A stretch of 64,000 nucleotides of DNA, taken from the NCBI GenBank assembly GCA_964187785.1, contig OZ076409.1:4218001-4282000 (forward strand), given 5' to 3'. The DNA is from Amphiscolops sp. MND2022 (taxonomy: Eukaryota). The notes below the pieces were generated by a model. That model worked only from the letters and a program-made list of their open reading frames with translations. It had not been told where the DNA came from and searched no databases. The first letter of the stretch is position 1, and each line of letters begins with the position of its first letter. Position numbers and translations under genes: made by a program. Below, piece by piece: positions 4,029 to 45,959 of the stretch.

Positions 4029-5330
4029 TTAAAACTGCCCAAAAATACTCGTACACATGTAAGGGAAGATAAAACGAACAACACTCACAGTTAGTCTCGC
4101 TTGCCCCCACTCGAAATCACTCAGAGTAGCCTGGTAATCTGTGAATGAGCTGAGCCGGGCCCAAAAGTTGTGGAGAAGGGAGACATCGCCTTGATTTTTG
4201 AGGAAGCCTCGTGTGATACACAACTGTGTTCTAGCTCGGGACTCTGCAGTAACGACGGCAGTAGTGTGGCCTTCCATGAAATGCTCGTAGAACGGGAATC
4301 TCTCTCCGATGTCTATGAGTTCTGTGTGTATGAACTTTGGCAGTTCTTCAGCAAGCTTCATCCTTGTATGATTTTTCAATCTCGTACCCTGACCCGGTGT
4401 TGCACTTTGTCAGTGACGGGGTCGACTGATTTGAGGTGCTCATATCTCCATCTCTGGTCCCGCTTCGGATGTTTTTCAGTACGATGGTGCCTCCGAATTT
4501 TCACTGTCGCCTTGGTCTTGATGGAGAAATTACGTTTACAAATGTGGCAAAGGACAATGAGGGGTTTGTGAATTGGATCAGCAGGCGCTGAAATAAAAGA
4601 CTTAGTCCAACCGATCTTCTTGAAAAGTTCTTCCCTCATGGGAACTCCACGCTGTATTGCCCTCTTCGTCCTCACGGTCTTCTTGGACTTGGGTTCACCA
4701 GTTACCCTCTCTACTTGGGTCTGTTTTTTTTCATTTCAAAGAGGGTGGCGTCTTGACTAGTAAAACCAGAAGATTCAATCCCTTCAGAAGCCATTTTGGG
4801 GGCGTTTTGCACACTTGCTGAGACGGTTGCTCCCTTGGCCGATGACCTCCTGAAGTACTCTGAGGTCACTGCCATTTCAGTGGTACCATCGCTCTTTTCG
4901 CAAATGGTCAGATTTCGGGTCTCCTCCTCCACGTTTATGTGCCCAAGTCCTGCATCATTCACGCTTGAATCAAGGCTGGAATCACTGTCTTCCATTCTTC
5001 CTGGAGTTTGAGCTCATGTCCGTTTTCTGAAATGCTTCGTTCTCGATTTAGCAGTGGTAGGAGTCCCTTTCAATGCTTCCAGGATCATGCGCTCTCTTTC
5101 GGAGTACGTCAGGCTCACGGTTTCATTTGTCAGTGTTTTCAGAATGTTGGTTGTATACTTGGACCTCCGTGGAAACTACTGTTGGATGCCCCATGGGAGT
5201 CAGAATGACCGTGTGGCTTCGAAATACCACTTTAGGAGGGCTCGACTGCACCTTGGAAGTTCGTGTAATTTGACCCACTGGGCCTGGGTATTCGTGGTTG
5301 CTTGCTCAACATGTCCCTCTGACAAACATC
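4029..5330 (-). pseudogene. Degenerate relic of the first long exon of the hAT-derived accessory gene (paralogue of 10096-12036)
   Basis: ORF fragments 4376-4675 (QRGVPMREELFKKIGWTKSFISAPADP..LCHICKRNFSIK..RHHRTEKH) and 4029-4379 (LPKFIHTELIDIGERFPFY..TDYQATLSDFEWG) align with the 660-aa ORF. 5060-5260 translates to SRALLKWYF/HPTV/LTNETV..ERMILEALKG, matching SRAILKTYF/HPTV/LTDETL..EQMILDAVRG. Frameshifts and stops present. Confidence 0.88.
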
Positions 5331-5333
5331 ATA

Positions 5334-5997
5334 GTTTTTAGTTCAACTTCAGCAATAATCTTATGCGTCGTCTTGTACACACTAAAAGAAATATGATGAC
5401 GTCAAGAAGGCGGCGATAGAAAAGTCAAAGCAGTTCAAAAAACAATTCAGATATTAGTCAACATTTCTTCAAAAATCGATCACATGTGAGGGATGAAAAG
5501 AGTTGAAAAAAAATCCTTCGACGAAAAACTTCATATGATTTAAAGTCATTGTCAGAGATGAGTATGCTTTTCTATGTGAACTAATGGGAATGAAATTGAA
5601 GACGAAGAGTCTTTTAGAATCGGGTTGAGGAGTAGAATTGAAAAAAGTTTGAACGGTAGGGAAAACAAGGAGTGTTTGTTAAACAAGTAAATCAAAAGTA
5701 GGAGTTTTTAAAAGTATTGTGAAAAGCTCCCAAAGGGGGCAAGTTAAAGTTGTAGGAGGTAGATTAAAATATTTAAAAGTGAGTTTTAGCGTTTAAAATT
5801 GGAATTAGGCGAGCTCCAAGTTCGGGGAAACTTACATTGTTAGAGTATTTTTTTAATTTTACTTCGAAATTAACGGTAGGAAACAAAATCTTTTCATACA
5901 ATTAAGTGTGAAAACAAAAGGGGTTGGGGATAGGAAAAATGAACGGGTGGGGAAAAATTAGACTAGTAGAAAATAGTTTACAACAATTAAAATAAAA
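5334..5997. repeat. Diverged direct repeat, copy 2 (see 2890-3592)
   Basis: Colinear similarity to 2890-3592. Confidence 0.75.
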
Positions 5998-6437
5998 GAA
6001 TAACAACAATTAAAAACAATTCGGAATGCAGAGCTCTTGGAACATTTTGCATTGAACTGTATAATTTCAAAAGTTGGGTTTGAGAAGGTTTGAGAACCAA
6101 AATGTTTGGCTCTGTGTTGAAACATTTGCAACTATTGTGTTTGCTGCAGTTTATAATTTACATGTAAAAAGAGTTTGTAATCTTTTTATTCTCAACTAAC
6201 AGCCCTAATAATACTGATGACTAATAAACCGAGTACTGAAGTTCTTCGAAACCTATCTATAGTGGCTATTTTTGAACTAATCGGAGTGTCATGTAAAAAC
6301 TCATGTGATTTTTTTTAAAATGATAACTCATGAATTATAACTTGCAAATGTAATTTACTTTTTCTTGTGATTTTTCAATTTTATCAGTGATCCAATTCCC
6401 TAATCAAAATCTTCAGACGGTTTTTCCAGATGCGAGA

Positions 6438-7043
6438 TTAAGCTTCATGAACAGAATTGTCATGAACGTTTAGTTCAGGGTAATCATCGTTTAATTGATT
6501 CTCATACTGTCCGTTTCTTAAGCTACTCTTTGCGTTAAGATCTCGCTGAACTTCGGAATTTAGTTCCGGTCTCTCGGACGGAATGTCCCATCCCTTTCTG
6601 GTCCTGTGTCCTGATCTGGCCATGATAACATTTTGGATTTGAGGAAGTACTTGGGTACTTATCGCATCGTTTATGGCTCTCTGTATTTGGACGCTCACCG
6701 AATTCATCATTTCGTCCATTTCCCGTGAAATACGAGAGTTCAATTCGCTAGACAATCTGTTTATTTCAGCGCTAGAATCACCTGTGATAGAATTGCGATC
6801 ACATTCGGCATTCATCCTAGAGTCAATATTTCTCCTGGGTCTACCTCCGTTTCCGTCTTCAATATCAGACTCATTACTTGCAAAGCTCCTAGATCTCCTA
6901 GGTAAATTACTATTCAAGCTACCTTCTCTTTCTTGTGCACCAAAATGGTTTTCGCCTAACATGATATCCAGATTTTCAATATCGGATAACATCTCAAGTC
7001 CTCTAGACTTTCTCGCTTTCTTTTGCTTTCTAGTGGTGGGCAT
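6438..7043 (-). CDS. Truncated Gag N-terminus encoded in the 3' LTR, reading out 6 codons into flanking DNA
   Basis: 201-aa ORF nearly identical to aa 1-195 of the gag at 20165-21553; divergence begins exactly at the LTR end. Confidence 0.85.
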   Translation of the reverse strand: MPTTRKQKKARKSRGLEMLSDIENLDIMLGENHFGAQEREGSLNSNLPRRSRSFASNESDIEDGNGGRPRRNIDSRMNAECDRNSITGDSSAEINRLSSELNSRISREMDEMMNSVSVQIQRAINDAISTQVLPQIQNVIMARSGHRTRKGWDIPSERPELNSEVQRDLNAKSSLRNGQYENQLNDDYPELNVHDNSVHEA

Positions 7044-8353
7044 TGAAACAACTCCGAATCAACAATAAATTAATCAATACGGAAATAACAGCGTAGCCGT
7101 TTGGAAATCAATCTTTTCTAGAGTCGTATAGTATGAATTGTGTCCCGCTCAGGCTAAACACCGGTATTTATACCCCTGAGCGGGTGACACTCACATATTT
7201 TACATGTTTTCATCCAAGATTGACATCGTAAGGTATGTAATGCACTTGATTTTTACATATCTCTGGTATTTAACAGGTATGGTTTTGAAAGGTATTTGCA
7301 CCATAAGAATTTCCGTTTACATATTTCCTATATCATCGGAAAGCATCAATCACATATTTCTGTGAAATCCTGATTGGGAGAATTCCTGACATATTTGTCT
7401 CCCAAAATATAACATCAAACAATCAACATAATGCTAAATATCCTTAACGGTACTTCAAACAACATATCTATTCTACATATTATTATTGCAATGTCAACAA
7501 ATGTTAATCTCGTTGTTGGAATGCGAGGCTCGTGGCACTGGTATGCAGTGTTAACACGTGCCACCACGTGGCTATAGGTAAACGTAGGGGGAAGCAATTT
7601 CAAATAATACATGTCAAATCTATTTAAATATCACTACATTTCCCAAAAGGGCCGAAATTGGCCAAATCCTGATTAATTGCACAATACTAGGGGGAGAAAG
7701 GGTAAAAGACCTTATTCGGCCTTTGATCAGCATTTAGTTCATTTGGTCCCTTGAAGGGTACGTTGGTATTATTTCAATATTAAAACACCTCTAGAATAAT
7801 CCCCAACCAATATGGTTAATTATAGGGTACAGGTAATAAAGCATCATCCATTACGTTAAGACGGCCTAAGCCGGCCATTTGACCAAAGTACAAAACAATC
7901 CGTGGACATTAAGTTAATTGGCCATAATCGGCCGCTACCAAATCAAAGCCATATTTCACTCGTGAATTGAAGCGCTGTGATTGGTTGGAGGAATGAGCTC
8001 AAGTGACGTTTTTGGATTATTGCTGAGCGTCACTTGAACTCGTTTCCTTTACGTTGTACAGCTATATTGCTACGTATTACTTTCATAATCGCAAAGCACC
8101 TTTCAACTTTTGAACCACAATTACACTGTTTGGGTCTTCAAATGTAATTTTAACAGACTATTTTTTTATATGCAAATATATTAAGACTAGCAACATTAAC
8201 AAACGTACTATGTATTGTATAATCAAAATGGCAAAAAGTTTTTAAATTCCGTGTTTTAACCTGATCAATAGATGGGTAGTGTTCCGGGCACAAACTCTTG
8301 CCCGTTTGCCGATGTAGTCACTGTCGTACCGTCACAGGCGGCAGCCTGCGACA
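6458..8353 (-). repeat. 3' LTR of element 1 (1896 bp)
   Basis: About 98% identical by eye (~35 substitutions, one ~16-bp indel) to 20968-22878. TG...CA ends. Contains a copy of the first ~195 gag codons. Confidence 0.95.
7141..7189 (-). promoter_or_regulatory. Putative LTR core promoter: TATAAATA (7172-7165) inside an inverted repeat (5' LTR copy at 21651-21699)
   Basis: CCCGCTCAGG...CCTGAGCGGG perfect 10-bp arms flank the TATA box, ~125 nt upstream of the gag ATG; an Inr-like TTCATAC lies ~30 nt downstream of the TATA box. Confidence 0.55.
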
Positions 8354-9047
8354 CTGCGGGTGTGATGAAAAGAAAACAGCCAGCATTAAGTCCGTTTTCA
8401 TATGCTTCCTTTCTGAGTCTCGTGATGTATTCGGGTTCGTCTCTTGGTGTAGAACGCTGCATACACCATTTTACCTTTTCGTCTTTGATCGAGTCCACCG
8501 ACCGACCGCAAACCATGCATCCGGTATAAAGTACTTCGCTGACATTCTGGTAGGGTACTGAATTTTGTACATGGTATGACGCATGAAAGTTGCTCGGAGC
8601 TGGCCGGAGAAGGGGGGTGTCCACACTTGGACCCCTTTCGTGCTCTGGCGGGGACATAGGTGATTCCAAGACGGGCATTATTGTGTTACAGAGATCTATG
8701 CGCTTCTTCTCGAATTTCCTTGGCGGGGCATAGCACATTTCCCTATCAAAGTATTTAAGGCCCAGTTTCGGTGTCACCCCTTCTTCCATTTGAGATGTAC
8801 TTGGTCCAGCTCTCATTTCGTATTCGGGTTCATCCATAGTCATTACTCTGCTTCCGATTAACATTGGGCTAGACGTAACTTCTTTTTCAATCCGGACTAT
8901 CAGTTGCTCGGTGTCTGTCGAACAATCGGTTTCCCAGTCCGAGGACTCATCTTCACTACTGGATATGTAGATTACTGATTTACCGGAGTTATCAGAATCG
9001 TATTCTTCGAAGTCAAATAACTTCCTTGCGAGGTTATATTTACTCAT
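8265..9047 (-). CDS. Accessory ORF (260 aa) of element 1, sense strand, overlapping the 3' LTR
   Basis: Intact ATG ORF with acidic N-terminus, RKLF, VIYISSSEDE, PPRKFEKKR and CMVC motifs. The last ~29 codons lie inside the LTR. No family recognised. Confidence 0.8.
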   Translation of the reverse strand: MSKYNLARKLFDFEEYDSDNSGKSVIYISSSEDESSDWETDCSTDTEQLIVRIEKEVTSSPMLIGSRVMTMDEPEYEMRAGPSTSQMEEGVTPKLGLKYFDREMCYAPPRKFEKKRIDLCNTIMPVLESPMSPPEHERGPSVDTPLLRPAPSNFHASYHVQNSVPYQNVSEVLYTGCMVCGRSVDSIKDEKVKWCMQRSTPRDEPEYITRLRKEAYENGLNAGCFLFITPAVSQAAACDGTTVTTSANGQEFVPGTLPIY

Positions 9048-9929
9048 GATGGCTTTTTTCGCTATTTTGAAGCTTGTAGATGCAACTGTATCGTGATGAA
9101 GTTTTAGGGTAGAATGAATTTATCAAATCCGAGAGTTTAGCCGAGTAAGGTGTTTTCCCGAAGTTTCCAATTTGGCGGTTAGACCTCCGGTTAATCGTCC
9201 TGATCCGTCATAAACTTTTCAGAAAGGAATTCCATTATTAGTCGGCTCCCTTTGATGGCCTGATGTTTACCCTCCATCAGAGTCAACACTAGAAGAGGTG
9301 TGAATGACGCTCGACTTATGAATATCAACTACACCCGTCTCAAGTGGGTAATTAACGGGTCGCTTGTAAGCAATTAGCGGCACGCGTCACCAAAATTTCT
9401 CGCAATGGCTCCATCCAATCAGCGTTAAGCTTCGATAAATTGTAAAATTAAATAATAAAAATGGCGAAAATAATAAATCTAAATAATTCAAGATGGCGAA
9501 AATTCTAACTAAGGGTAACTGGACGAAACGGCAAAACAAGACAGGGCAAACGGCCATTACTGGCCTCTAACTAAATAAGCTGTAAACAACAAAGTTTTTT
9601 GTACACTTCGCTGGCAGACTCCATGTACAGAATAAATATGTAGATAATCCATAATATTAGTCTGGTAAGAATCTTCAGCCACGAACTCCAATCTTTCAAT
9701 TTTATTTCAATTCCATATTACTCCAATTCCATTTTTTTCCTGATCCCTCCGTATCCAATTCCTTATTTATTGAGTCTTCGTACGCACTTCCGGGCCTTCA
9801 ACTGCGCTGGTAGATCCCTCTTCCAGGCTTCGTCCGAAACTACCCATTTCCTCCGCCAATCTCGATCTTGTGTCTTGGCTATTCCACCCAGATTGGGACT
9901 GACTCCAAAAGGCAATTTCCTACAGCAGG
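9048..9929. promoter_or_regulatory. Putative internal bidirectional promoter region between the divergent accessory genes
   Basis: Non-coding interval between head-to-head ORFs; CCAAT (~9416) and two AA(A/G)ATGGCG YY1-like motifs (~9460, ~9490). Confidence 0.4.
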
Positions 9930-10095
9930 ATGTCTTCTAATCCAGGTTGGTTTCAGATTTATTTTGAACTAAGGTTTCAACTTGATCAGAGTTAAATCCT
10001 GTTCACTGATTGCTTCCTATTTCCAAAGTCAAACACGTGACAACACGTTTCATTCAATTTCACAAGTACTTCCGGAAGATTTCTAATGCGGTAAA

Positions 10096-13000
10096 ATGGA
10101 TTTCTTTCAAGGAAGCTCACCGCCAAATTTCATCTCTTTTTGTTTAGAGAATTATCCACCTGAAGATCAGACATTGCCTGCAGGTCCTTCTCAGACGCAA
10201 CCTCCCATGACCAGAGATGTTATTCCAGAAGTCCTTGCCTCGGCCAGTGCTTTTTATTCCCCACAAAGCGCCACTAGTGAGGTCGACGTTAATTCTTATG
10301 CTGACGCAATGGTACAGCACCTGGAATCCAAACAAGGAGCAGGCCAAGATAACCAAGCCACGGTCGGAGAAGAAGGAGAGTTAACGACCTCGGACGTTCT
10401 TGAAGGGCAGACGGACCAGGCGGTCCTGATACCTAGAGGAGCAAGCACCCCAATCCCCGTTGGAGGAACAGAAGAATCCCACTTGAGCCTGACAGCTTTG
10501 GAATCTGCGCTAGTAATCGCAACTTCTTCTGGTTCACAGTATCCTGAATTGTTGACAGCGGCAGAGGAAGTCCAGGGTGACCAATCTAGGACTGCTCCCC
10601 AATCCGAAGATGATAATACCTCTTCCGTGTATGAAGTGCCTGCCTTACCAGGTAATGAACCCAAAGTCCGTTTTTTAGCCGATCTGAGTGAAGGGGAGAA
10701 AACCTCAGAAGAAACCAGCAGTCTGGGAAAAACGGCATTGTATGGACACATCCCCGGCATTGATGAATCGGGAACTGAGGCGAGTGACGAGTCTGGACCG
10801 GTTACCCCACATCACCAGGACCCTATTGCTTCCACTTCCAGGGGACTAGATGACCAGTTGCCTGACTTGTCTGGGAGGTCACGAGCTATCCTCAAGACTT
10901 ATTTCTTGGAGGAGAAGGCCTTCAACCTTCCCCGAGGACACCCGACAGTAGCCTTCACTGAGCCGCAGATTTATCATTTGCTGCGGGTATTGACCGATGA
11001 GACTCTCAGAATGTCCCATACCAACATGGAGCAGATGATCCTAGATGCCGTTAGAGGTAGACCAACAGCGTTGCCATCACGGACTGATACCTTCCGTTCG
11101 AGAGCCCGAGCCGCGACTCCTTTCAGACAAGCTGAAAGTGATTCTAGCGATGCCGAAGCCGGGACGTTCACGTCTGGAGAATCGGACGACCAAGACACCC
11201 AACGTCATGCCGAGACAGGTGATTCGTCGTTTTCTGGTGGGAGTGACAGCGGAGGAGAAATGGCATTGATGTCAGCATCATATAAACCTGTCACAAGCCA
11301 CACTTGGGCCGAAACCGCTACTATGGTTGTAAGTGACGACCTAAGGGGCCAAGACACAGACCCTAGTAGTCAGGATGCTACCTTATCTGAAGTCAGGGAG
11401 CAGACCCTGAGTGGCAAGTCAAGGCGAAACACTCGAGCCAAGAAATCCCCAAAACCCAAACGACAGTCCCAACGGGGCGTGCCCATGCGCGAGGAGTTCT
11501 TCACCAAAATAGGGTGGACCAGATCCTTCATTTCCGGTCCCGCTGACCCTATTCATAACCCACATACGGTCTGGTGCCATATGTGTAAGAAGAACTTTTC
11601 AATTAAGTCCAAAGGTCCTCTTGAGATCCTCCGACACCACCGTACTGAAAAGCATCTGCGACGGGATCAGAGGTGTAGGTATGAGCACCTCAGGAGTGTC
11701 GACCCTGTGAGCGGGACGATTCAGCACCGAGTCAGAGGCCGTAATGGGAAAATCCTCAGTAAAATTGAGTTGGCGCGGGAACTGCCGAAGTTCATCCACA
11801 AAGAACTGATCGACATCGGGGAGCGTTTCCCGTTTTATGACGATTTCATCCGGGGCCGAACTACCACTTCAGTTACTCCCGAGTCGCGAGCCCGAACACA
11901 GCTGTGTCTGATTGGAGAGTACATCCCCAAACACGGCGACCTGTCAGTCCTCAGGAGAATGTGGGCGATGATCAGCTCATTCACCGATTATCAAGCTGCA
12001 CTCTGCGACTTTGACTGGGGGGAAGAGAGAGTGACTGTAAGTATTAGTGATAGCAGTAATAGAGACTTTAGGGCGTAAACCCAGGGGGTTTCTTCCTCCC
12101 ACGAACCGTGTTTTATTTTTCTGTGGTTTGTAGTTCAAGAGTGTATTTTTCAAGAGTGTTGTAGTATCTACATCTGTATACAAGTCCCCTCGTACGTGTA
12201 CTAATCTCGTTGTATTCCCGTCCAGTCTTAAGTGTCCTCCGATTGGCAATTCGAATCCGATTTCACATAGTGTTTCCCATTTCAGGCGATATTTCAACAT
12301 TTCTTCAATTGCGCCTTACAGAACATTGCTGAGCACGTAGCTTCGGAACAATGCTTTAGCCTGGAGTTCGAAGACAGTGGGACCAGCAGGTTCATGTCCC
12401 TGCGATTCTGGAAGGGTCGGGAACTCTGCAGAGTGACAGTGTGCAGAAGTGGACTACCGTCTTCGGACTTAGTGGGCGAACTGGGGTCCCTAGCCCGACT
12501 GTTCTCAGTGGTCTCTACCAAGGCAGATATAGTTGCCTGTTCGGGTTGTCCCGCTGAACTGCTCCGGACCATAGATGAAATGCCGACCACTACCAGGGCC
12601 GTGCAAAGCTGTTTTCGCTTCAGCCAGTTGGACCTGCCTCACCTGATGCATAAACTCAGCTACAGTGTTTTTGGCCATATTGATTTCTTTTCCGTGCTCA
12701 AAGGCCTCGTGATTTCCCTAGGCAGTTCTCTCCGCGAAGATTGGGTACAAAGGAGTCCTGAACTAGTTCGAGTTAGTGTCTTTCAATCATTTGGTGAAAT
12801 CTAAATAGGGAGGGGATCCGAGAATTGTACATCTGCGTAATATTTACCACCATACTTTCTCTTTTAGGCCATTTCCAGTTGCAGATTAGATCTCCAATCC
12901 CTCCCCACACTTTGCCAGGAACTCATAGATGAGTGGAAGTCGATCACGACTCACTTGACTTCTCGCGTTCCCCAGCCGCAAGGACAGGGGGTTAGGACAA

Positions 13001-14425
13001 GGGTGAGTTATGTGCCAAGTTCCCCCTTCAGCAAAATTGTAATCACCATAACCAGCTTGTCGAGCGTTGTAGGGTTGATAATAGGTGTCACTTCCTCCGT
13101 TTTTTGTTCCAGGTTCAAAGTTTCGAGTGGTCCCTCATTTGTGATGAGTTCTTCCTTGTCAAACTGGAGTTCTTTTACCACCTAATCAGCGATTGTACGT
13201 GTTCTACGGTGAATTTTAAGACTTTTCCTTTGGGGCCGGAACAGACCATTTTCTTGTTTCAGACACTTCCACTTTCGTCATCAACTTGCAGCGGCGGCGC
13301 GATTCCTCCTTTTACCTCTGTGGTGAGGTTTCCCGTTATATCTATAATTTGTGTTTCCGCTGTTACAACTCTGACACAATCCCCCTCGAGAATTCGTGGT
13401 TTCTCCTGCTAGGGTTCCAGATTACAGAGGGAACGTTCATGCCTGTGGAGGAGTTCCTAACCCGACTCCAAATGACAAACAAGGTGGCCCGAGCCTGTAA
13501 ATTGAAAGCAGAAGGCATCCATTCAGGGAAGAAAGTGGACAAGTCACTCGTCCAAAAGACCGCCTCAACAATGAAGGCTGAGTTCGTCCGAGATGGGCAA
13601 GCATACCTGCAGTACCTGATTGGCGAAGTCCTCCGACAAGCTGGGCTAAGCTCAAACATCGTTAAAGGGCTCGCTGCTTTTGACCCTTTCATTATGCTCA
13701 GAAGGCCTACAGAAGTGGCGCTCCGTCATTTTGACGTTCTCTACAGTACCTTCCTTCTCCGCTCATGGGTGACATCTTCCAATGAGTCTGCTTGTCGTGA
13801 CGAGTATGTTGGACTACTCGGCCACCTGCATGGCAATTATGCTCCTGATTTCGATATCACTCAACATTTCCGGGACTTAATCGATTTCCTCATGTCTCTC
13901 GAGTATATGCAGAACCGCGTTCATTTAGTGCATTTGTTCAAACTATGTTGTCTCTGTGCCACCTCCTGCAGTCCTGGTTACCCCATTGTCACTATGGGGA
14001 CACTTAACACAACAGGCTTCCAAAGTCGGTCCACTGACGTTGTTTTGCCTGCACAGAGCTATTTGTCCCGGGTACCAGAGTCCCTTGCTTATTGCGTTAC
14101 TGACCAGAAACTCAGTGATTTTTCGCTACTGGCTGCTTCCTTCGGGCGATCAGCTTTCTCACCAGAGTACGATCCATGGACCCACGTTGATGTCTTTGGG
14201 CGGGGTAAGATCTTCAAGTCTCTGGTTTCAACCTATCGCAGTGCCTCTTCTGATTCTGCTGAGCGGGTAAGAGGACTGGACAATCCAAATGTATCCATCA
14301 TGGGGGACGCGCCTGCTGTTCAGCCTCCCAGTGACACTAAACGAAGGCGTATGGAGAGAAGCTCATCAAGGTCGAGGGCCTCTTCTGTTACTCGGGAACT
14401 CACTCCTGGTTCTTCTAACCTTTAA
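10096..14425 (+). CDS. Spliced antisense accessory gene, hAT-transposase-derived (~1268 aa): exons 10096-12036, 12286-12771, 12868-13002, 13113-13194, 13263-14425; possible extra 5' mini-exon 9930-9945 spliced to 10148
   Basis: Four GT-AG introns (GTAAGT..TTTCAG, GTTAGT..TTTTAG, GTGAGT..TTCCAG, GTACGT..TTTCAG; phases 0,0,0,1) join the separate ORF-track pieces into one stop-free frame of 3807 nt. It has a CxxC-x17-H-x5-H zinc finger and hAT-like blocks (FSLEFEDS..MSLRFW, LIDEWKSI, DEFFLVKLEFF, LAAFDP, LVHLFKLCC). Confidence 0.85.
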
Positions 14426-14680
14426 GTGTACAAATGTATTTATGTACACTATTTCTGTAAACTTTGTTTATTTCTGTTATGATTTTTTCATTTCCATTTG
14501 TTTCTTTTGATTTCTTGATCCCATATTTATTCTCTCGCAAGGAATCCTTGGAATGCCCCATTATTTATTAAAAAACGCTTGAGGGGTTAAAAGATAAAAG
14601 AGATAGAAGAAAAGAACTCCTATTGTCGGGAAAATTCAATTCTTTAGTATCTAAAGTCTTCTGAGTAGTTTGGGGTAGGG

Positions 14681-17050
14681 TTAGGCCTGAGATTTCCCTC
14701 CTCTAGGGCTCAGACTTTCATTTCTAGCATCGCTTTCAGATATTTCGGGCACGATAATATCATCCCCCCTTTTTGGAGAATTCTGTGCGTCGTTTTCATT
14801 CGTCAAATTTCTTTCTGTGGGAATTTCATCATTTTTTGGTTTTTCATCCGTATTCGGCAAAGTTTTTTCTTGATTTTTCGGGTGAACGGCCGGATTCGGC
14901 CAATCAGATTTGTCATTGCTAGCCGCTTCACTGGCTTCTTTCCTTTTTGTGACGTCATGATTTAATCTTTCATTCCGGCTCCGCGCCGCGTGGTCAGCGT
15001 AACTTGTTTCGTCACTCGTGATTATGTAATCCGCTTCGTTCTCGGTTACGTCATTTGTATTCGTTTCTGCCGCATTCGGTTGCTCGCCATTCGGCATGCT
15101 GGTCGGAATAGTCTCGTTGCCTCGTGTAACTAGCTGCTCGCCAAAGTCGGTTTCCCACGTTATGACGTATAAATCATCTTGCGGAATGACAATTTCTTCG
15201 TCTGGCTGCAATTGTTGTTCTTGGAACTTGTCCTCAAGACGCTGATTAGGGACAAACTTTTTAAGGCGAATTCGATGTAATATTTGAGTCTTGTTTGTGT
15301 TGATTCGTCTCACGATATAATTTTCGTTAGGTAAAACTTTTTGGACTATAAATGGTCCAACCCACCGATAATCGCGGAATGGAATTTTTGATCCTTGATT
15401 GTCCGTTTTCGGCTGTAAGACAAAACAGTATTCGTTCTCCTTTAGTGGAGCGGCTTTTGCTTTGCGGTCGTAATATTCTTTGTACTTGATATACGACTGC
15501 ATAATGTTCTGCTTCGTTTTGTCAATCAGGATTTTTGTCCGGTTTTGGATTTCTTCAGCAAATTCGGTTGTGGGGTTAATTTGCTCGTTTGGATTATTTC
15601 CAAGCTTGTGATCCAAAATATTAAATGGAATTCTTCCATGAAATACTCTCGTTGGCTCACAACCGATTCTGGCGTGGTAAGTAGTATTATGATTCAGTAC
15701 TGCTAATGGCAAGTATTTGTGCCATTGTCGGCGATATTCTCCACATGCCATTTTGAGATTTGTTTTCAATGAGGCATGAGTTCGCTCCAATTTCCCAATT
15801 GTCTGCGGGTGTTTCGTCGTTGCACATTTGAGTGTGATGCTCAAAATCTGCGTAACCTCCGCAATAATTGTAGAAGTAAATGCAGTACCTTTATCAGTGA
15901 TAAGAGTCGTTGGTAAATATGAGTGTTTAGTAATGATGTCAATGAGCGCTTTTGCTACATTGATCGCTGATGCGTCCGTAAGGGGATATGCGAACAAATA
16001 TCGGGAAAATACGTCTATTGCTGTTAGGACATTTTCATACCCTCCACTTGGGGGGAGATTCGGTAAAAGGTCGATTTGCATGGCGTCTTCAGGTCCAAGG
16101 TCCCATTCGGGCAAGTTGAGCAGCTCAGGTGTCATCGTTGCGTTAGGGACTCTTTTGTCTCTGGCACATTGTTCGCACCCTTCTACCCACTTTTTGACGT
16201 GTTTAGCCATGCTAGGGTAGTAATACCTCTGTCGAATTTCCTGTAACATTTTTGAAATCCCAGGATGTTTATGTGCTGTCCCGTGGAGAGACTTAAGGAG
16301 TTCCTGAAGTAAATGTTGCGGGAGTAAAATTTGATGGTATTTAACATTCCCTGTTTCATCGAAATATTGCCTTGTCAGGATTTCGTCCTTTAGTACAATT
16401 CGTTCCAGATTGTTTGCGTAATGTCTATATCGGGCATCCTGATGCAGTAGATTTTCTGAATACTCTTCATGAAGCAGTTTTGCTTTCAATTGTTGTAGTA
16501 CCACATCTTTGGATTGTTCGATAATGATCTGGTTCGTTCTCTTCAATCGGACCTGTATGTCGGGGTGTTGCTTGACCAGACTTGTTGACAGAGTTTGTAT
16601 AGTAACAGTGGGCTCATCAGTTGCTGGATTTTTCCTGATTGCTTCTTTTCTTGCCCACAACTGTTCTTCTGTCTCATCTTCGTCATTGGTGTAGAAGATT
16701 TGTTCTTCTTGTGACACCCCTGCGGATTGGACATTGATTTCGATTGGTAGTGTTTGTACATCTTCACGAATTTTGATCACCAATTTGTCCTTCGGATCTG
16801 CTTCCAATCGGGACAAATAGTCGGCAGCTGTATTTTGTGCTCCCGGGATGTGCGCTATGACAAAATTGAACTGGATAACATAGTCACATGCGTTCCACAG
16901 TGCTGGGGGTATTATTTTCGTTTGGAAAAATCGTGTTACAGCTTTGTTGTCCGTAAGGATGATGACCGGTTTCGGCGCACCCCAGAAGATATGTCCAAAT
17001 TCTTTGAATGCAAAATAAATTGCAAGGAATTCCTTGGCATAAATTGACAT
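14681..17050 (-). CDS. pol: Pol, 3' part: RNase H C-terminus, integrase, GPY/F module and acidic tail (frameshifted from the 5' part)
   Basis: KEFLAIY..ILTDNK..ADYLSR (RH); H-x4-H..CEQC zinc-binding motif; QID, ITDKG, KLER (DDE); WVGPF. The native C-terminus probably continued in another frame as ..LRPNPTPNYSEDFRY* to ~14644. Confidence 0.95.
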   Translation of the reverse strand: MSIYAKEFLAIYFAFKEFGHIFWGAPKPVIILTDNKAVTRFFQTKIIPPALWNACDYVIQFNFVIAHIPGAQNTAADYLSRLEADPKDKLVIKIREDVQTLPIEINVQSAGVSQEEQIFYTNDEDETEEQLWARKEAIRKNPATDEPTVTIQTLSTSLVKQHPDIQVRLKRTNQIIIEQSKDVVLQQLKAKLLHEEYSENLLHQDARYRHYANNLERIVLKDEILTRQYFDETGNVKYHQILLPQHLLQELLKSLHGTAHKHPGISKMLQEIRQRYYYPSMAKHVKKWVEGCEQCARDKRVPNATMTPELLNLPEWDLGPEDAMQIDLLPNLPPSGGYENVLTAIDVFSRYLFAYPLTDASAINVAKALIDIITKHSYLPTTLITDKGTAFTSTIIAEVTQILSITLKCATTKHPQTIGKLERTHASLKTNLKMACGEYRRQWHKYLPLAVLNHNTTYHARIGCEPTRVFHGRIPFNILDHKLGNNPNEQINPTTEFAEEIQNRTKILIDKTKQNIMQSYIKYKEYYDRKAKAAPLKENEYCFVLQPKTDNQGSKIPFRDYRWVGPFIVQKVLPNENYIVRRINTNKTQILHRIRLKKFVPNQRLEDKFQEQQLQPDEEIVIPQDDLYVITWETDFGEQLVTRGNETIPTSMPNGEQPNAAETNTNDVTENEADYIITSDETSYADHAARSRNERLNHDVTKRKEASEAASNDKSDWPNPAVHPKNQEKTLPNTDEKPKNDEIPTERNLTNENDAQNSPKRGDDIIVPEISESDARNESLSPRGGKSQA

Positions 17051-19848
17051 CTTGATCTGTGCTGTGCTGGGGTGAAGGTTTTTGATCCATATGCGACCGG
17101 GGCATACGATTTTCTGAGTGATGTAAACTTCTGGCTTGGGTCGTCTTTGATTAGGACCGCGTACCCGGCTGCACCAAAACTTGCATCAGTCATTAGTGCT
17201 ATTTGCTTGTTGGGAATGGGTTGCTGTAGGGCCAAGTCGCAACATTTGTCTAGTGCTCTGTTGATTTCTTCGAATTGTTGGACTAATTTTTTCGATACTA
17301 GGACCTTTTCGTCACTTTTGAGCATTTTGTAGAATGGAGCAAGGCGTTCGGAGAGTCTTGGGACATAATTCCTGTAGTAGTTTAGGAATCCCAAATAGCG
17401 CTGTAAAGCCTTTTTCGACTTCGGGAATTTGGTCTTTTCCGGAAAGTTTTGCACATTCTGTTTCTGGGGTTTGACGCCTTGTGGGGTAATAGTCCGTCCG
17501 AGAAAATCAATTTCTTTTTCACCGAAGTGACATTTGTGCATTGTTAACTTAAGGCCTGCTTCCTGAATGCATTTGAACGTAGCTCTCAGGTTCGTCATGA
17601 GGTGATCAACATCATTGGCTGCGATGCCGATATCGTCCACATATTGGGCACACTGATCCGCTTTAATGACTTTGTCAAGGTATTCTCTCATGAAACTTGA
17701 GGATAGTGACCGACTAAGGCCTTGTGCCAATCGCCTGTAAGCGAATGTGCGACTGGCAAAATTGAAAGCCAACATTTCGATTGAGCGTTGGCCGGCCATT
17801 GGTAGGCAGTGGTATGCCTGCGAACAGTCTAATTTACAGAACAGTTTTTTGCCTGCCAAGTGTTGGGCAGCATCAACTAGAGTACTGACGGGGTGATTAT
17901 TGTTGATATAATCATCCGAGATGAGGTTGTTGATTTTTCTCAAGTCAACCAAGAGTCGGAGTTTCCCATTCGGTTTCTTTTGTGCGAATATTGGACTCGC
18001 ATATTTCGAAAATGGCAGTGTAGTTTTTATGCTATATTTGTGTAACATGGCTAATTCAACTAGGATGTCCTCCTTCAAGTTGATAGGAGCTGGAAGACTT
18101 TGACTATAGGCTGGGGAATCGCCCTTAGGCGTCAGTTTCACTTTGAATTCCTCGTTCATGCCTATATCAAATCGGTGTCGTGCAAAAATGTCATGGAATT
18201 CCACTAACAATTCCTCAATTTTCTCCTTTTCTTCAGGAGTAAGGGTGGAATTTTTCCAATCAAAGTTTTCTAAGAATTTTGCACGCGATTCTGCATCTGT
18301 AGTGGGGTCGAGTGTCTCCAGGTCCTGTAGGGCCTGTAACTCGCGTAGGATTCGTTTTTGTATAGGTGTGTGTTCCTCAGGATTTCCAGGATTTTCTGGA
18401 GTTGGGAACCAGTAATTTTCCGACTTTTGAGGATTTCTGTTTGTCTTGATCAGACTGCTGACAAAGTGGGCTGCCTGTTCTTGGTCGTTTTGCAAGAGGT
18501 GCCAGGTTGATGCCGGATCTACCGGTTTGACATATTTCATCTGCTCTGGCGTCATGACTGAGAAATTGGCAATGTGAAGTCCCTTTTTGAGTTTATAAGA
18601 ATGGTCTGTTAAATTGTTCACTGGTATCATTATGTTGCCATCATTCAGAGTGACCAAAGCTGGGCAAAATGTGATGTCGCCTTCTTTATGTAGAAGGTCG
18701 CTCGGTTGTAAAATTCCAGTGACAGCATTCTCAGAGTAGAGTAGGGAATTGGTCCTAATTAGGACTTTATCGTTTGGTGGAATAGTTATCTCAATAGGGT
18801 TGAGAATTGGTTCCAATACATTTGAATACTTATGGTCAGCTGTTTTGAGCTGCATCGAAAAGAACGGGAAGGTCAGTATCCCTTGTCTCATGTCCAGCAC
18901 TGTATGGTTTCTTTGAAGGAACATTAGTCCAATAATCGGACCTGTCAGATGTTCCATCACTATGAAGATTTCATGGAACTCAATGTCACCAACTTCGAAT
19001 TTGAGCTCTATGGTACTCTTAGGAGTTTCCAGTTGCCCATTAGCGACCATGATTTGGAAATTCGGAAGCGGACCTTCCCGGATAACGGATTGTGGAGATA
19101 AAAGTCGGATTTTCCGGAGGTCCATTTCAGGAATTGCACTGGACAGCGCTCCAGTGTCAATGAGTCCGTCAATGGTCAATTCCCCAAAGTCCATTAGGAA
19201 ATACAACATGCGTTTTTTGCATTTGAGGTTGATGTTGGTTGACAGGGGTACACAGTCTCGTTCACCGTCTCTGGTGATTAAGACTTTTTGGAACTGTTTC
19301 TCGTCTAGCAATGATTGTGGTATGGGTTCAACATTGCTGTCATGGGTCTCAGTCCCCAATGGGTTTGGGAACACTGGATGGTTTGTGCCATCATTCATTT
19401 GCCATTTTTCAATTAGCGCTCTTGTTTTCTTGTTATGGGTAATTGGAGGGTTCTGGTGGACTGTTCTATTATAGTGTTCAATATCGTCCAGGACATATTG
19501 AAATTGTAGTGAATCTTGGTTGTAAAGCTCGGTGTCCCAGTAGGGATCTCTGCCGTAGTCTGGATCGATGTATGTTGGATTGTAATCATCGATTAGGGGA
19601 ATGGGCCTGAAGCGGGTGGTGAAGGTAGTGGTGTAATCAGGGTCCCAAACAGGAATTGGTTTCTGGAATAAATGGGTGTTATTGTAGGTGATGATGGTAG
19701 CTTTTTCCATCTGTTGCTGCCAGACAACAGAGGGATAGCCCATCAATTGCTGATTGTATTGGTGGAAAGTTTGTGTTGGAGGGTCCGATCTGATGTACTG
19801 TCGGACAGAAATTATTTCGTTATATTGGAGTCGTGGCGAAGTTAGTTT
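16936..19848 (-). CDS. pol: Pol, 5' part: aspartic protease, reverse transcriptase and RNase H N-terminus
   Basis: LIDTGA (protease), LRLLVDLRKIN, LAQGL, YVDD (RT), TDAS (RH). The frame is open from the gag-terminal slippery site; frameshift lesion near 17055. Confidence 0.95.
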   Translation of the reverse strand, partial: KLTSPRLQYNEIISVRQYIRSDPPTQTFHQYNQQLMGYPSVVWQQQMEKATIITYNNTHLFQKPIPVWDPDYTTTFTTRFRPIPLIDDYNPTYIDPDYGRDPYWDTELYNQDSLQFQYVLDDIEHYNRTVHQNPPITHNKKTRALIEKWQMNDGTNHPVFPNPLGTETHDSNVEPIPQSLLDEKQFQKVLITRDGERDCVPLSTNINLKCKKRMLYFLMDFGELTIDGLIDTGALSSAIPEMDLRKIRLLSPQSVIREGPLPNFQIMVANGQLETPKSTIELKFEVGDIEFHEIFIVMEHLTGPIIGLMFLQRNHTVLDMRQGILTFPFFSMQLKTADHKYSNVLEPILNPIEITIPPNDKVLIRTNSLLYSENAVTGILQPSDLLHKEGDITFCPALVTLNDGNIMIPVNNLTDHSYKLKKGLHIANFSVMTPEQMKYVKPVDPASTWHLLQNDQEQAAHFVSSLIKTNRNPQKSENYWFPTPENPGNPEEHTPIQKRILRELQALQDLETLDPTTDAESRAKFLENFDWKNSTLTPEEKEKIEELLVEFHDIFARHRFDIGMNEEFKVKLTPKGDSPAYSQSLPAPINLKEDILVELAMLHKYSIKTTLPFSKYASPIFAQKKPNGKLRLLVDLRKINNLISDDYINNNHPVSTLVDAAQHLAGKKLFCKLDCSQAYHCLPMAGQRSIEMLAFNFASRTFAYRRLAQGLSRSLSSSFMREYLDKVIKADQCAQYVDDIGIAANDVDHLMTNLRATFKCIQEAGLKLTMHKCHFGEKEIDFLGRTITPQGVKPQKQNVQNFPEKTKFPKSKKALQRYLGFLNYYRNYVPRLSERLAPFYKMLKSDEKVLVSKKLVQQFEEINRALDKCCDLALQQPIPNKQIALMTDASFGAAGYAVLIKDDPSQKFTSLRKSYAPVAYGSKTFTPAQHRSRCQFMPRNSLQFILHSKNLDISSGVRRNRSSSLRTTKL

Positions 19849-21553
19849 TTTGACTCATCATTAGAATATGAGGATTGGGAGCCCGATGATGTCGGTTTGG
19901 TCTGAGGTTTCTGAGCCTTGGGATTGGGCTTATTGTCAGTTGCGTCCTCAGGTCTAGTGCGCTTGGGTTTAAGATGTGCACCAGCACCTTGCCAACATCT
20001 CTCCTCCGGGTGGTTCTTTTTCCCACAAGTGCCACACTCCGGATATGTTTTCTTCTGCGTCGACTTGCCTTGTTGGGCATCTTTTTCTTTTTCTTTTTCA
20101 GTTTTTTGCAGTCCTTGACCATGTGGCCCTTTTCCTTGCAGTAATTGCAAGTAATGTCTGACATTTATCCAGTGGACAGAGGAGTTTTAGATTTTGTAGT
20201 CGAGGAGGTCATTGTGGCCATTGGTAGGTCATCTGACTCCTCGAGGGCGTTAAGCTCTAATTCTCTCTCCAAATGAGCAACTATCTCATCGTAGGAGCCA
20301 TTTTCTAATCTGGCCATGTTGACGGACCGCTTCAGTTTTGGTGGCAGTTTTGCATAAAGCAAGCTGTCAATCATTTTCTGCGCATGATCACCAAACGCCT
20401 TCTCGGCTCCCTGGTTTAATTCTTCGAGAAAATCAGGCAGTTTCATTGTATTGGGATCGAAGACCAGACGGTGCCATTTATGTTTGGCAGTCGCCTGTGA
20501 CTCGGGTTTGAGGTATTTTTGTCTAAAAATGACTAATACGTCCTCTATAGTTTGTCGGTTGCTTGAGCTGATATTTCTGAATGTCTGAAGAGCATTCTTT
20601 CTCAATAAAGAGTGGAAGTGGTTGATCTTCATTTGCTCAGTCATTTCTGGCTGCATCTTGATCATAGTGTGAAATAGGTCTTCGAACAGCTCGAATTTTT
20701 CGCTTTTGCCATCGAATGTCATGGTATTTGAGTTGACTGGGCGTATGGTACGTTGTTGGGCTGTCGGTCTATTCTGCATTGTAGTCAAGACGTCTGCCAG
20801 TCGAGTGATGGAGTCAGAGTCAGCAGCCGTGGTGATTCTCTCTTGTGCTGGGATCGCCGTGTCGAGGTTGATGTCCTCAAAGGACCTGTCGAGATGATTT
20901 CTGGATGAGATTCGTCCTGTGAGAAACTCAGGAACTTGATTTGGAGATTCGTTGTCTCCTGTCACCATGTCATGAACGTTTAGTTCAGGGTAATCATCGT
21001 TTAATTGATTCTCATACTGTCCGTTTCTTAAGCTACTCTTTGCGTTAAGATCTCGCTGAACTTCGGAATTTAGTACCGGTCTCTCGGACGGAACGTCCCA
21101 TCCCTTTCTGGCCCTGTGTCCTGATCTGGCCATGATAACATTTTGGATTTGAGGAAGTACTTGGGTACTTATCGCATCGTTTATGGCTCTCTGTATTTGA
21201 ACGCTCACCGAATTCATCATTTCGTCCTTTTCCCGTGAAATACGAGAGTTCAAATCGCTAGACAATCTGTTTATTTCAGCGCTAGAGTCACCTGTGATAG
21301 AATTGCGATCACATTCGGCATTCATCCTAGAGTCAATATTTCTCCTGGGTCTACCTCCGTTTCCGTCTTCAATATCAGACTCATTACATGCAAAGCTCCT
21401 AGATCTCCTAGGTAAATTACTATTCAAGCTACCTTCTCTTTCTTGTGCACCAAAATGGTTTTCGCCTAACATGATATCCAGATTTTCAATATCGGATAAC
21501 ATCTCAAGTCCTCTAGACTTTCTCGCTTTCTTTTGCTTTCTAGTGGTGGGCAT
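19842..21553 (-). CDS. gag: Gag with two zinc knuckles (premature stop at 20165-20167, frameshift near 20095)
   Basis: Capsid-like FDGKSEKFELFEDLF region; CNYCKEKGHMVKDC and CGTCGKKNHPEERC knuckles. ATG is at 21553, inside the 5' LTR. Confidence 0.92.
19845..19851 (-). promoter_or_regulatory. Programmed -1 ribosomal frameshift site A AAA AAC (gag to pol)
   Basis: TCA AAA AAC TAA ends gag; the -1 frame reads LTSPRLQYNE..QQLMGY without stops into pol. Confidence 0.8.
20956..20967 (-). promoter_or_regulatory. Primer-binding site TGGTGACAGGAG (tRNA-Leu-like), located within gag
   Basis: TGG immediately follows the CA end of the 5' LTR. 11/12 match to the common animal tRNA-Leu PBS TGGTGTCAGGAG (tRNA identity tentative). 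Confidence 0.75.
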
Positions 21554-22878
21554 TGAAACAACTCCGAATCAACAATAAATGAATCAATACGGAAATAACA
21601 GCGTAGCCGTTCGGAAATCAATCTTTTCTAGAGTCGTATAGTATGAATTGTGTCCCGCTCAGGCTAAACACCGGTATTTATACCCCTGAGCGGGTGACAC
21701 TCACATATTTTACATATTTTCATCCAAGATTGACATCGTAAGGTATGTAATGCACTTGATTTTTACATATCTCTGGTATTTAACAGGTATGGTTTTGAAA
21801 GGTATTTGCACCATAAGAAATTCCGTTTACATATTTCCTATATCATCGGAAAGCATCAATCACATATTTCTGTGAAATCCTGATTGGGAGAATTCCTGAC
21901 ATATTTGTCTCCCAAAATATAACATCAAACAATCAACATAATGGTAAATATCCTTAACGGTACTTCAAACAACATATCTATTCTACATATTATTATTGCA
22001 ATGTCAACAAATGTTAATCTCGTTGTTGGAATGCGAGGCTCGTGGCGCTGGTATGCAGTGTTAACACGTGCCACCACGTGGCTATAGGTCAACGTAGGGG
22101 GAAGCAAATTCAAATAATACATGTCTAATCTATTTAAATATCACTACATCACCAGATAAGGGTATTTCCCAAAAGGGCCGAAATTGGCCAAAAATTGATT
22201 AATTGCACAATACTAGGGGAGAAAGGGTAAAAGACCTTATTCGGCCTTTGATCAGCATTTAGTTCATTTGGTCCGTTGAAGGGTACGTTGGTATTATTTC
22301 AATATTAAAACACCTCTAGAATAATCCCCAACCAATATGGTTAATTATAGGGTACAGGTAATACAGCATCATTCATTACGTTAAGACGGCCTAAACCGGC
22401 CATTGGACCAAAGTACAAAACAATCCGTGGACATTAGGTTAATTGGCCATAATCGGCCGCTACCAAATCAAAGCCATATTGCACTCGTGAATTGAAGCGC
22501 TGTGATTGGTTGGAGGAATGAGCTCAAGTGACGTTTTTGGAATATTGCTGAGCGTCACTTGAACTCGTTTCCTTTACGTTGTACAGCTATATTGCTACGT
22601 ATTACTTTCATAATCGCAAAGCACCTTTCAACTTTTGAACCACAATTACATTGTTTGGGTCTTCAAATGTAGTTTTAACAGACTAATTTTACATATGCAA
22701 ATATATTAAGACTAGCAACATTAACAAACGTACTATGTATTGTATAGTCAAAATGGCAAAAAGTTTTTAAATTCCGTGTTTTAACCTGATCAATAGATGG
22801 GTAGTGTTCCGGGCACAAACTCTTGCCCGTTTGCCGATGTAGTCACTGTCGTACCGTCACAGGCGGCAGCCTGCGACA
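20968..22878 (-). repeat. 5' LTR of element 1 (1911 bp)
   Basis: Matches 6458-8353; TG...CA; flanked by TSD AGAAT. Confidence 0.95.
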
Positions 22879-23087
22879 AGAATCTAATTCAATCCCAATT
22901 TCAAACAATCTTTTGCCAGGATCTGGTGAGACGAACGAATTGAAGTTAGCGTAAAAGTAAAGAAGCATCAATTGGCTTCTTCACGAAAGTTCATTATTCT
23001 AGCGCAACCGAAGAATCAGTGATTTCAGGTAAAATAGAAATTCCAGAGAATGTTTGAATTGGATTACGTAGGGTCCAAACTTTTTCA

Positions 23088-26488: not shown

Positions 26489-26688
26489 NNNNNNNNNNNN
26501 NNNNNNNNNNNNNNNNNNNNNNNNNNNNNNNNNNNNNNNNNNNNNNNNNNNNNNNNNNNNNNNNNNNNNNNNNNNNNNNNNNNNNNNNNNNNNNNNNNNN
26601 NNNNNNNNNNNNNNNNNNNNNNNNNNNNNNNNNNNNNNNNNNNNNNNNNNNNNNNNNNNNNNNNNNNNNNNNNNNNNNNNNNNNNNNN
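26489..26688. other. Assembly gap (200 N)
   Basis: Run of N. Confidence 1.
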
Positions 26689-41994: not shown

Positions 41995-42030
<36 letters not shown>

Positions 42031-45922: not shown

Positions 45923-45959
45923 AGTTAAAATACAGTTCTATATTTAAGTCCTGAATATG

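What the first reader, a model, noticed from the sequence alone, without database searches (positions are those of the whole stretch)
20956..21553. About 195 codons of gag lie inside the LTR, so the PBS is embedded in the reading frame
The TSD and TG..CA ends fix the LTR at 20968-22878, yet the gag ATG is at 21553. The LTR end and PBS are translated (..NVHD-MVTG..). Short gag/LTR overlaps are known (e.g. Ty1), but ~590 nt is extreme. Every 3' or solo LTR would encode a truncated Gag N-terminus able to read into flanking DNA (here 6438-7043), which could create fusion ORFs or a dominant-negative Gag fragment.
Basis: seen in the sequence. Interest (0 to 1): 0.7.

Follow-up and report, generated by a model that had tools for sequence, protein, structure and literature searches.

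The report
Retrotransposon repeats that encode Gag's start
In a large family of gypsy-type jumping genes, the first third of the coat-protein gene lies inside the long terminal repeat, a second gene ends inside its other end, and the usual purine-rich priming signal is missing, so both sites that start DNA copying sit in protein-coding sequence.

Summary
Observation confirmed and family-wide. A 16.4-kb gypsy-order LTR retrotransposon (minus strand, 6458-22878) has 1.9-kb LTRs, 97% alike, with TG..CA ends and TSD AGAAT. Gag starts 586 nt before the LTR end and reads through the PBS. Of 120 listed short homologs, 101 stop matching at this junction and continue with unrelated tails. In 100 of the 101 the first tail residue fits a codon starting with the LTR's last A (chance 0.43 each). 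Distant Gag families (capsid core 47-83% identical) also carry a PBS-like peptide after 114-223 residues. The LTR-borne part is a basic tip plus one long predicted helix; the capsid fold (275-445) lies outside. New here: a conserved 260-aa ORF ends 89 nt inside the LTR start, and its codons exclude a polypurine tract there in 97 homologs. Transcript ends and the plus-strand primer are inferred, not shown. Ty1 also has its PBS in gag; the searches run found no overlap of this size. New variant of a known kind.

The parts
6453..6457 (.). Target-site duplication AGAAT, left copy
22879..22883 (.). Target-site duplication AGAAT, right copy
20968..22878 (-). 5' LTR, 1911 nt, TG..CA; 675 nt (35%) of it is copy of coding sequence (586 nt gag start, 89 nt ORF3 end)
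6458..8353 (-). 3' LTR, 1896 nt; 34 substitutions in 1895 aligned columns and one 16-nt deletion against the 5' LTR
20968..21553 (-). LTR-borne gag codons 1-195: basic tip (1-35), variable linker, long predicted helix (84-145), variable linker
20950..20967 (-). Primer binding site starting TGG with no spacer after the LTR's CA, translated as M-V-T-G; the junction itself forms an in-frame ATG (codon 196). 18-nt extent is nominal; priming tRNA not identified
20165..21553 (-). gag frame of this copy, 462 codons, ended by a premature stop; the two zinc knuckles follow in broken frames to about 19845; uninterrupted relatives are mostly 564-570 aa
14681..19854 (-). pol: protease, RT, RNase H, integrase in that order, in two frames (broken near RNase H)
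8265..9047 (-). ORF3, 260 aa, no Pfam family above cut-off, 213 homologs; its last 28 codons and stop (89 nt) lie inside the 3' LTR
8354..8369 (-). Expected polypurine-tract position: 6 purines in the last 15 nt, coding F-I-T-P-A-V; no canonical PPT
6438..7043 (-). Truncated gag frame of the 3' LTR: 195 Gag residues plus 6 from flanking DNA
21677..21682 (-). Candidate TATA box (LTR position 1197) in the loop of a 15-nt inverted repeat (21649-21663 / 21685-21699); gag ATG is the first ATG downstream
   Evidence: function inferred
21270..21275 (-). Only AATAAA of the LTR (position 1604), inside gag codons E93-I94-N95; the 3' LTR copy would be near 6760-6765
   Evidence: function inferred
22856..22878 (-). 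Short hairpin at the LTR start (also 8331-8353), overlapping the most conserved ORF3 codons; not significant against shuffles
   Evidence: z -1.61, 14 of 200 shuffles
10087..14425 (+). Antisense frames inside the element (663, 177, 105, 401 codons stop to stop), no Pfam family above cut-off

Best explanation
It is a decayed copy of a successful gypsy-type LTR retrotransposon family whose LTR has taken in coding sequence at both ends. SHOWN: the LTR ends in gag codon 196 in this copy and across the family; the frame is continuous through the PBS; the capsid and zinc knuckles lie outside the LTR; ORF3 ends inside the LTR start; no purine tract precedes the 3' LTR. INFERRED: RNA starts about 30 nt after the TATA-like box (LTR position about 1230). 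After a roughly 95-nt AUG-free leader, Gag is made from the first AUG, so R-U5 is mostly coding and ribosomes cross the PBS, as in Ty1 but over about 590 nt. The LTR-borne part is a matrix-like N-terminal domain: a basic tip for nucleic acid, membrane or nuclear targeting, and one long helix likely to oligomerise. It evolves fast because it travels with the LTR. The RNA probably ends about 20 nt after the AATAAA in codons 93-95 of the 3' LTR (R about 400 nt, U5 about 280 nt), and that signal must be passed over in the 5' LTR. A tRNA primes at the PBS and gives a minus strong-stop DNA of about 680 nt that carries the gag start. The plus strand is primed at a fixed non-purine site inside ORF3. 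Likely origin: CA directly followed by TGG always forms an AUG, so an ancestral Gag could start at the junction and later extend upstream into U5/R, or the LTR end moved downstream over gag. Truncated frames in 3' and solo LTRs are an unavoidable by-product, probably without a function of their own.
For: Boundary. Continuous frame: of the 120 listed Gag homologs (3363 hits) 117 match the junction peptide preceded by D, and the other 3 show it by eye; it starts at residue 195 in 83 of 120. Constraint: 97 of 120 with a full N-terminus form four subfamilies (45, 27, 9, 16 rows) that are 51-64% identical in the LTR-borne part but 97-99% in the capsid core, and their lengths stay 195, 195, 189, 195. 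The 77 invariant columns of 195 cluster in two blocks (0 of 5000 permutations reach this). Wider clade: all 23 internal MVTG among 149 representatives are preceded by D, H, N or Y, the four residues of an N-A-pyrimidine codon that an LTR ending ACA gives (background 17%). The motif occurs in all well-supported branches of the capsid tree. Eight long N-termini all begin basic. Structure: one helix, 84-145, pLDDT 82-94 by blocks, rest of 1-195 under 50; capsid 275-445 like dArc, PNMA2, PEG10, Ty3. Leader: no ATG in the 153 nt before the gag ATG; 45 of 1067 upstream 129-nt windows are ATG-free. ORF3 junction: 97 of 121 rows are in frame there and allow at most 6-9 purines in the 16 nt before the LTR. 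A neighbouring element in the same window has short LTRs, a 3-nt PBS spacer, a purine-rich stretch before its 3' LTR and an internal gag.
Against: No RNA, ribosome or cDNA data: start site, poly(A) site, start codon and both primers are inferred. No DNA of other copies with an LTR was obtained, so dN/dS was not measured. The conservative-change share over the whole LTR-borne part (33%) is no higher than the single-step neutral expectation (36%); it is 61% only in the two blocks, which were chosen after seeing the data, and 25% in the linkers. The two LTRs of this copy differ by 6 replacement and 2 silent changes, which is uninformative drift. The homolog lists are top-scoring open frames, so they are biased towards intact N-termini, and they may come from one or few genomes. 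Of 33 representatives with a capsid core and 60 or more upstream residues, 12 lack a strict MVTG and 6 start at it. For distant families, and for the LTR's 5' end in any other copy, the boundary is inferred from peptides, not seen in DNA. The helix shows no clear heptad pattern. E-I-N is kept in 201 of 240 proteins but lies in a conserved helix, so it does not prove the AATAAA.
Confidence: 0.75

Rival explanations
1. Gag proper starts at the AUG formed by the LTR/PBS junction (codon 196), from a shorter or spliced RNA. The upstream 195 codons are an optional extension or a second isoform, loosely like glyco-Gag of murine leukaemia virus (recalled).
For: Codon 196 has a purine at -3 and G at +4, while the first AUG has T at -3 and C at +4. 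6 of 33 representatives begin at MVTG. The capsid fold starts only about 80 residues later. N-terminal extensions of deep branches are not alignable with each other.
Against: 17 AUGs lie upstream of codon 196 from the first one on, so scanning cannot reach it. No promoter candidate was seen near the junction. Two upstream blocks are conserved across subfamilies. Starts at MVTG are gene-caller choices on possibly decayed copies.
Confidence: 0.12
2. The LTR-borne frame is kept partly because 3' and solo LTRs express the 195-residue fragment, which binds full-length Gag through the long helix and limits copy number, or fuses to host sequence.
For: The fragment frames exist in large numbers with TATA-like box, leader and AUG in the same LTR. 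The fragment holds a complete predicted helix. The N-terminal helix of distant P0455 weakly hits a dimerisation-domain profile (PF18192, E 2e-4, below cut-off).
Against: No capsid domain in the fragment, unlike p22 and DRT2 (PMC10951436). Tail lengths are near random expectation. The candidate poly(A) signal would cut the frame near codon 100, inside the helix and without a stop codon (inference).
Confidence: 0.15
3. The repeats are not true LTRs, or their boundary was mis-set (segmental duplication or tandem insertion that carried part of gag).
For: No polypurine tract before the 3' repeat; the overlap is unusually long.
Against: TG..CA ends, matching TSD and adjacent TGG; 100 of 101 unrelated tails begin with an A-starting codon.
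Confidence: 0.02

Closest known systems
Ty3/gypsy LTR retrotransposons (Metaviridae), e.g. Ty3
   Same: PR-RT-RH-IN order, LTRs with TG..CA, 5-bp TSD, tRNA-type PBS, capsid fold like Ty3, dArc, PNMA2 and PEG10, CCHC knuckles.
   Different: Gag starts 586 nt inside the LTR; PBS translated (Ty3's PBS segments lie next to the 5' UTR and in the 3' UTR: PMC4974528, passages); no polypurine tract; extra ORF ending in the LTR; 16.4 kb.
Ty1 of Saccharomyces cerevisiae (Ty1/copia)
   Same: PBS inside the GAG frame (PMC4974528, passages); Gag starts in the LTR and the PBS abuts the LTR (recalled).
   Different: Ty1's PBS is at RNA nt 94-104, so its overlap is a few dozen bases against 586 here; integrase precedes RT in Ty1; its restriction factor p22 is a capsid C-terminal piece (PMC10951436), the opposite end from the fragment here.
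Retroviral accessory genes overlapping U3 (HIV nef, MMTV sag, foamy-virus bet; recalled, not looked up)
   Same: A 3' ORF that runs into the start of the 3' LTR, as ORF3 does.
   Different: As recalled, those viruses keep a polypurine tract at the junction and a non-coding U5; here the junction codons exclude a purine tract and U5 is gag.
Giant gypsy elements Burro and Ogre (PMC6431247, passages)
   Same: Large size, long LTRs (Ogre 1.9-6.5 kb), extra ORFs of unknown function.
   Different: The passages seen do not describe gag starting inside the LTR; no shared accessory domains were found.

Membership tests
Ty3/gypsy LTR retrotransposon | Direct terminal repeats with TG..CA ends and a 4-6 bp TSD | tested here: met
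Ty3/gypsy LTR retrotransposon | pol order protease, RT, RNase H, integrase | tested here: met
   (RVT_1 E 3e-20, RT_RNaseH, Integrase_H2C2 E 7e-17, rve E 7e-11)
Ty3/gypsy LTR retrotransposon | Gag with two-lobed capsid fold and CCHC knuckle | tested here: met
   PNMA2 capsid E 5e-4; dArc1 Z 10.6, 155 aligned, rmsd 10.1; PEG10 CTD Z 9.8, 85 aligned, rmsd 3.0
Ty3/gypsy LTR retrotransposon | PBS complementary to a host tRNA 3' end | tested here: inconclusive
   TGG directly after the LTR; no self-priming complement of 7 nt or more in the element; no tRNA gene in the window and no genome held
Ty3/gypsy LTR retrotransposon | Polypurine tract just before the 3' LTR | tested here: not met
   6 purines in 15 nt; nearest upstream purine run of 12 or more is 3.7 kb away; at most 6-9 of 16 in 97 homologs. 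Filed therefore as a variant that works like Ty3/gypsy, not as a canonical member
Ty3/gypsy LTR retrotransposon | RT phylogeny inside Metaviridae, named clade | not tested
   No named reference sequences in session; Atlas gave generic RT clusters only
BEL/Pao (Belpaoviridae) | Pao-type profiles (Peptidase_A17, DUF1758, DUF5641; association recalled) | tested here: not met
   None at E 0.01; only DUF1759 hits Gag, below cut-off here and above it for distant P0455
Ty1/copia (Pseudoviridae) | Integrase before RT | tested here: not met
p22/DRT2-type Gag restriction factor | Truncated Gag that contains the capsid C-terminal domain | tested here: not met
   Fragment is residues 1-195; capsid maps to 275-445
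p22/DRT2-type Gag restriction factor | Expressed and inhibits transposition in trans | not testable with these tools
   No expression or activity data in session

The most novel reading that the evidence does not exclude
An undescribed clade of gypsy-type elements primes its plus strand without a polypurine tract, at a conserved signal inside a coding frame, and carries the whole matrix-like domain of Gag in R-U5. Every solo LTR is then a ready-made gene start (promoter, leader, AUG, 195 codons with an oligomerising helix, no stop) that is read into flanking DNA, giving the element a copy-number brake and the host a source of new fusion genes.
Probability: 0.3. Interest if true: 0.82.

Novelty: new variant of a known kind. 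Interest (0 to 1): 0.62.

Why it matters
It changes what an LTR can be: about 35% of this one is coding copy, and both priming sites lie in reading frames. It offers a natural system for three open points: how the plus strand is primed without a purine tract, how a poly(A) signal inside gag is ignored in the 5' LTR, and how translation and tRNA priming share one stretch of RNA. Subfamilies with a nearly identical capsid but very different LTR-borne N-termini show promoter and matrix-like domain evolving as one unit. Practically, annotation tools that require a PPT or non-coding LTRs may misjudge such families, and gene callers report their LTRs as orphan proteins of about 200 aa (1053 hits of 110-352 aa).

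Tried and rejected
No genome is held for the window. No sequencing run, and so no RNA holder, was listed; this is no evidence either way. DNA of related copies: viral contigs gave none; genome contigs gave none; metagenome contigs gave one 1162-nt locus, L001, with the capsid region only (67% identity). So dN/dS and DNA covariation could not be run. The self-association test of the helix was not available (tool queue full), which leaves oligomerisation open. Self-priming of the Tf1 kind (recalled) was rejected: no complement of the PBS of 7 nt or more in the element. RNA folds at the LTR start, PBS and gag start were not better than shuffles (z -0.81, -1.61, 0.13, 0.80). Rfam gave 0 matches at E 1 over 6400-23000. 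The ORF3 model was low confidence (mean pLDDT 51.8) and was not searched. Atlas gave nothing above 0.75 for the N-terminal part. PDB sequence search hit only zinc knuckles. All ten distant clusters looked up are unnamed, so the host is unidentified; 'acoel' was used as a guess in two paper searches with no support gained. Precedent searches (listings only): searches showed no gag/LTR overlap of this size; the PPT search returned unrelated papers and is uninformative. PMC5408684 held none of the six terms. PMC11117352 mentions only a pol/LTR overlap (one passage). PMC10309623 (passages) gave no precedent. One planarian genome paper was not held. Subscription journals, Repbase and GyDB are outside the library and no supplements were read, so a prior description cannot be excluded.

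Full report
The element. On the minus strand, 6458-22878 is a 16,421-nt LTR retrotransposon. Its repeats are 20968-22878 (1911 nt) and 6458-8353 (1896 nt), 97.3% identical. Both begin TG and end CA, and AGAAT flanks both ends. Pfam places protease, RT, RNase H and integrase in that order. This copy is broken: gag stops after codon 462, the zinc knuckles follow in shifted frames, and pol is split near RNase H. No genome is held, and all ten distant clusters looked up are unnamed, so the host is unknown; an invertebrate animal is a guess from the neighbouring element's viral fusion glycoprotein.

The observation. The gag ATG at 21553 is LTR position 1326, so 586 nt (195 codons and one base) lie in the LTR. 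The frame runs through the LTR end and the directly adjoining PBS as H-D-M-V-T-G. The 3' LTR holds the same 195 codons followed by six from the flank. The two copies differ by 6 replacement and 2 silent changes, which says nothing about selection because both drift after insertion.

Family test of the boundary. A search with the 3' LTR frame gave 1053 hits among 1145 candidates and listed 120. Of these, 101 match Gag to the junction D and then carry an unrelated tail, 12 continue into the PBS peptide, 6 end earlier and 1 has G at that position. If the LTR ends one base after that codon, with A, the next residue can only be I, M, T, N, K, S or R. It is so in 100 of 101, against 40 of 95 for the second residue and a chance rate of 0.43. 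The query's own N at that position may favour the 29 N rows, but 71 other rows also obey the rule. Only 1 of 1596 tail pairs shares 5 of 10 residues. Tail lengths (median 12, mean 19) are near the random expectation (11, 15). The boundary is therefore family-wide, and the truncated frames exist but show no clear sign of selected fusions.

Is the LTR-borne part real protein? Of 3363 Gag hits, 120 were listed. The junction peptide is present in 117 by pattern, always after D, and in the other 3 by eye; it begins at residue 195 in 83. The 97 rows with a full N-terminus fall into four subfamilies that are 51-64% identical in residues 1-195 but 97-99% in the capsid core, with lengths 195, 195, 189 and 195. 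The 77 invariant columns cluster in residues 1-35 and 90-140 (0 of 5000 permutations). Against this: the share of conservative changes over the whole part is 33% against 36% expected from single neutral steps. It is 61% in the two blocks, picked after the fact, and 25% in the linkers. The lists favour intact frames and may come from few genomes. AlphaFold2 on a natural 570-aa relative (129 rows) gives one confident helix at 84-145 and disorder elsewhere in 1-195. The capsid fold maps to 275-445 and resembles dArc, PNMA2, PEG10 and Ty3. The LTR thus carries a matrix-like N-terminal domain, not capsid.

The wider clade. A profile search gave 2318 representatives at E 0.001 and listed 150. Among the 149 new ones, 33 had a capsid core with 60 or more residues upstream: 15 hold an internal MVTG, 6 start at it, 4 show a variant and 8 show none. 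All 23 internal MVTG among the 149 are preceded by D (13), H (6), N (3) or Y (1). These are the residues of an N-A-pyrimidine codon, which is what an LTR ending ACA followed by TGG gives; background is 17%. Related rows are not independent, but the motif occurs in all starred branches of a capsid tree of 27 rows. Eight long N-termini run 114-223 residues before the motif, all begin with 4-8 K/R in 16 residues, and those from deep branches are mostly not alignable. For these families the LTR end is inferred from the peptide.

The other end of the LTR. A 260-aa ORF (9047-8265) runs 89 nt into the 3' LTR. It has 213 homologs among 386 candidates, 120 listed. Its most conserved ten-residue block spans the LTR start (modal 0.92), although the model is unstructured there, which suggests a nucleic-acid constraint. 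The 15 nt before the 3' LTR hold 6 purines, and the nearest upstream purine run of 12 or more is 3.7 kb away. In 97 of 121 rows that are in frame there, the encoded residues allow at most 6-9 purines in 16 nt. If the LTR starts at the same codon in those copies (shown only for this one), the family has no canonical polypurine tract. A short hairpin at the LTR start is not significant (14 of 200 shuffles). A neighbouring element at 34250-57712 has ordinary anatomy, so this is a family trait and not a trait of the genome.

How it most likely works (inferred). TATAAA at LTR 1197 sits in the loop of a 15-nt inverted repeat, and the gag ATG is the first one downstream; 45 of 1067 upstream windows of that length are ATG-free. 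I place the start near LTR 1230. The only AATAAA is at 1604, inside codons E93-I94-N95, kept as E-I-N in 201 of 240 proteins. That gives R of about 400 nt and U5 of about 280 nt, with the 5' copy of the signal suppressed. If suppression depends on nearness to the promoter, solo LTRs would read into their flanks and make the 195-residue fragment. If it needs sequence beyond the PBS, their RNAs would end near codon 100 without a stop and be degraded. The junction CA-TGG itself forms an in-frame AUG in good context, a plausible ancestral start, but 17 AUGs precede it. Repeated MVT-like motifs in some distant Gags hint that the LTR end and PBS were duplicated and shifted.

Comparison with what is known. 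Ty1 has its PBS inside GAG, at RNA nt 94-104 (PMC4974528, passages). Its restriction factors p22 and DRT2 act through the capsid C-terminal domain (PMC10951436, passages), which the fragment here lacks. Retroviral ORFs overlapping U3 are recalled, not looked up. Burro and Ogre match in size and extra ORFs only (PMC6431247, passages). Listings of searches showed no gag/LTR overlap of this size; search 67 on missing PPTs was uninformative; the library lacks most subscription journals and Repbase, and no supplements were read. Two unchecked notes of this scan touch the theme and are leads only.

Verdict. New variant of a known kind; interest 0.62.

Noticed in passing
window 34250-57712 (-): Second gypsy-order element, 23.5 kb, with 283/282-nt LTRs, TSD GAAC, PBS after a 3-nt spacer, decayed gag-pol, and frames matching a chuvirus-like fusion glycoprotein (PF24664, E 2e-18) within internal tandem duplications at 37929-47289.
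   Followed up: partly
window 10087-14425 (+): Antisense frames inside the main element (663, 177, 105, 401 codons) without a Pfam family above cut-off; a weak zinc-ribbon hit near residues 494-508 of the first.
   Followed up: partly
window 2977-5998: Decayed homolog of the 663-codon antisense frame (about 4030-5600, 41-67% identity by tblastn) between roughly 600-nt direct repeats 2977-3593 and 5400-5998 (85.7% alike); possibly a remnant of a related element.
   Followed up: partly
P0367, P0475, P0380, P0399, P0391: Two or three MVT-like motifs in a row upstream of the capsid, suggesting duplicated LTR-end/PBS segments.
   Followed up: no
tails of P0121-P0240: First flank base after the LTR looks skewed: I/M (T) 9, N/K (A) 41, S/R (G) 28, T (C) 22 of 100, hinting at a target-site preference; the query's N may inflate A.
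   Followed up: no
window 21649-21699: 15-nt inverted repeat enclosing the TATA-like box; a second 17-nt inverted repeat at 22517-22569 in the same LTR.
   Followed up: partly
window 26489-26688 and 61627-61832: A 200-base run of N, and a 24-nt tandem array inside an open frame 61441-61992.
   Followed up: no
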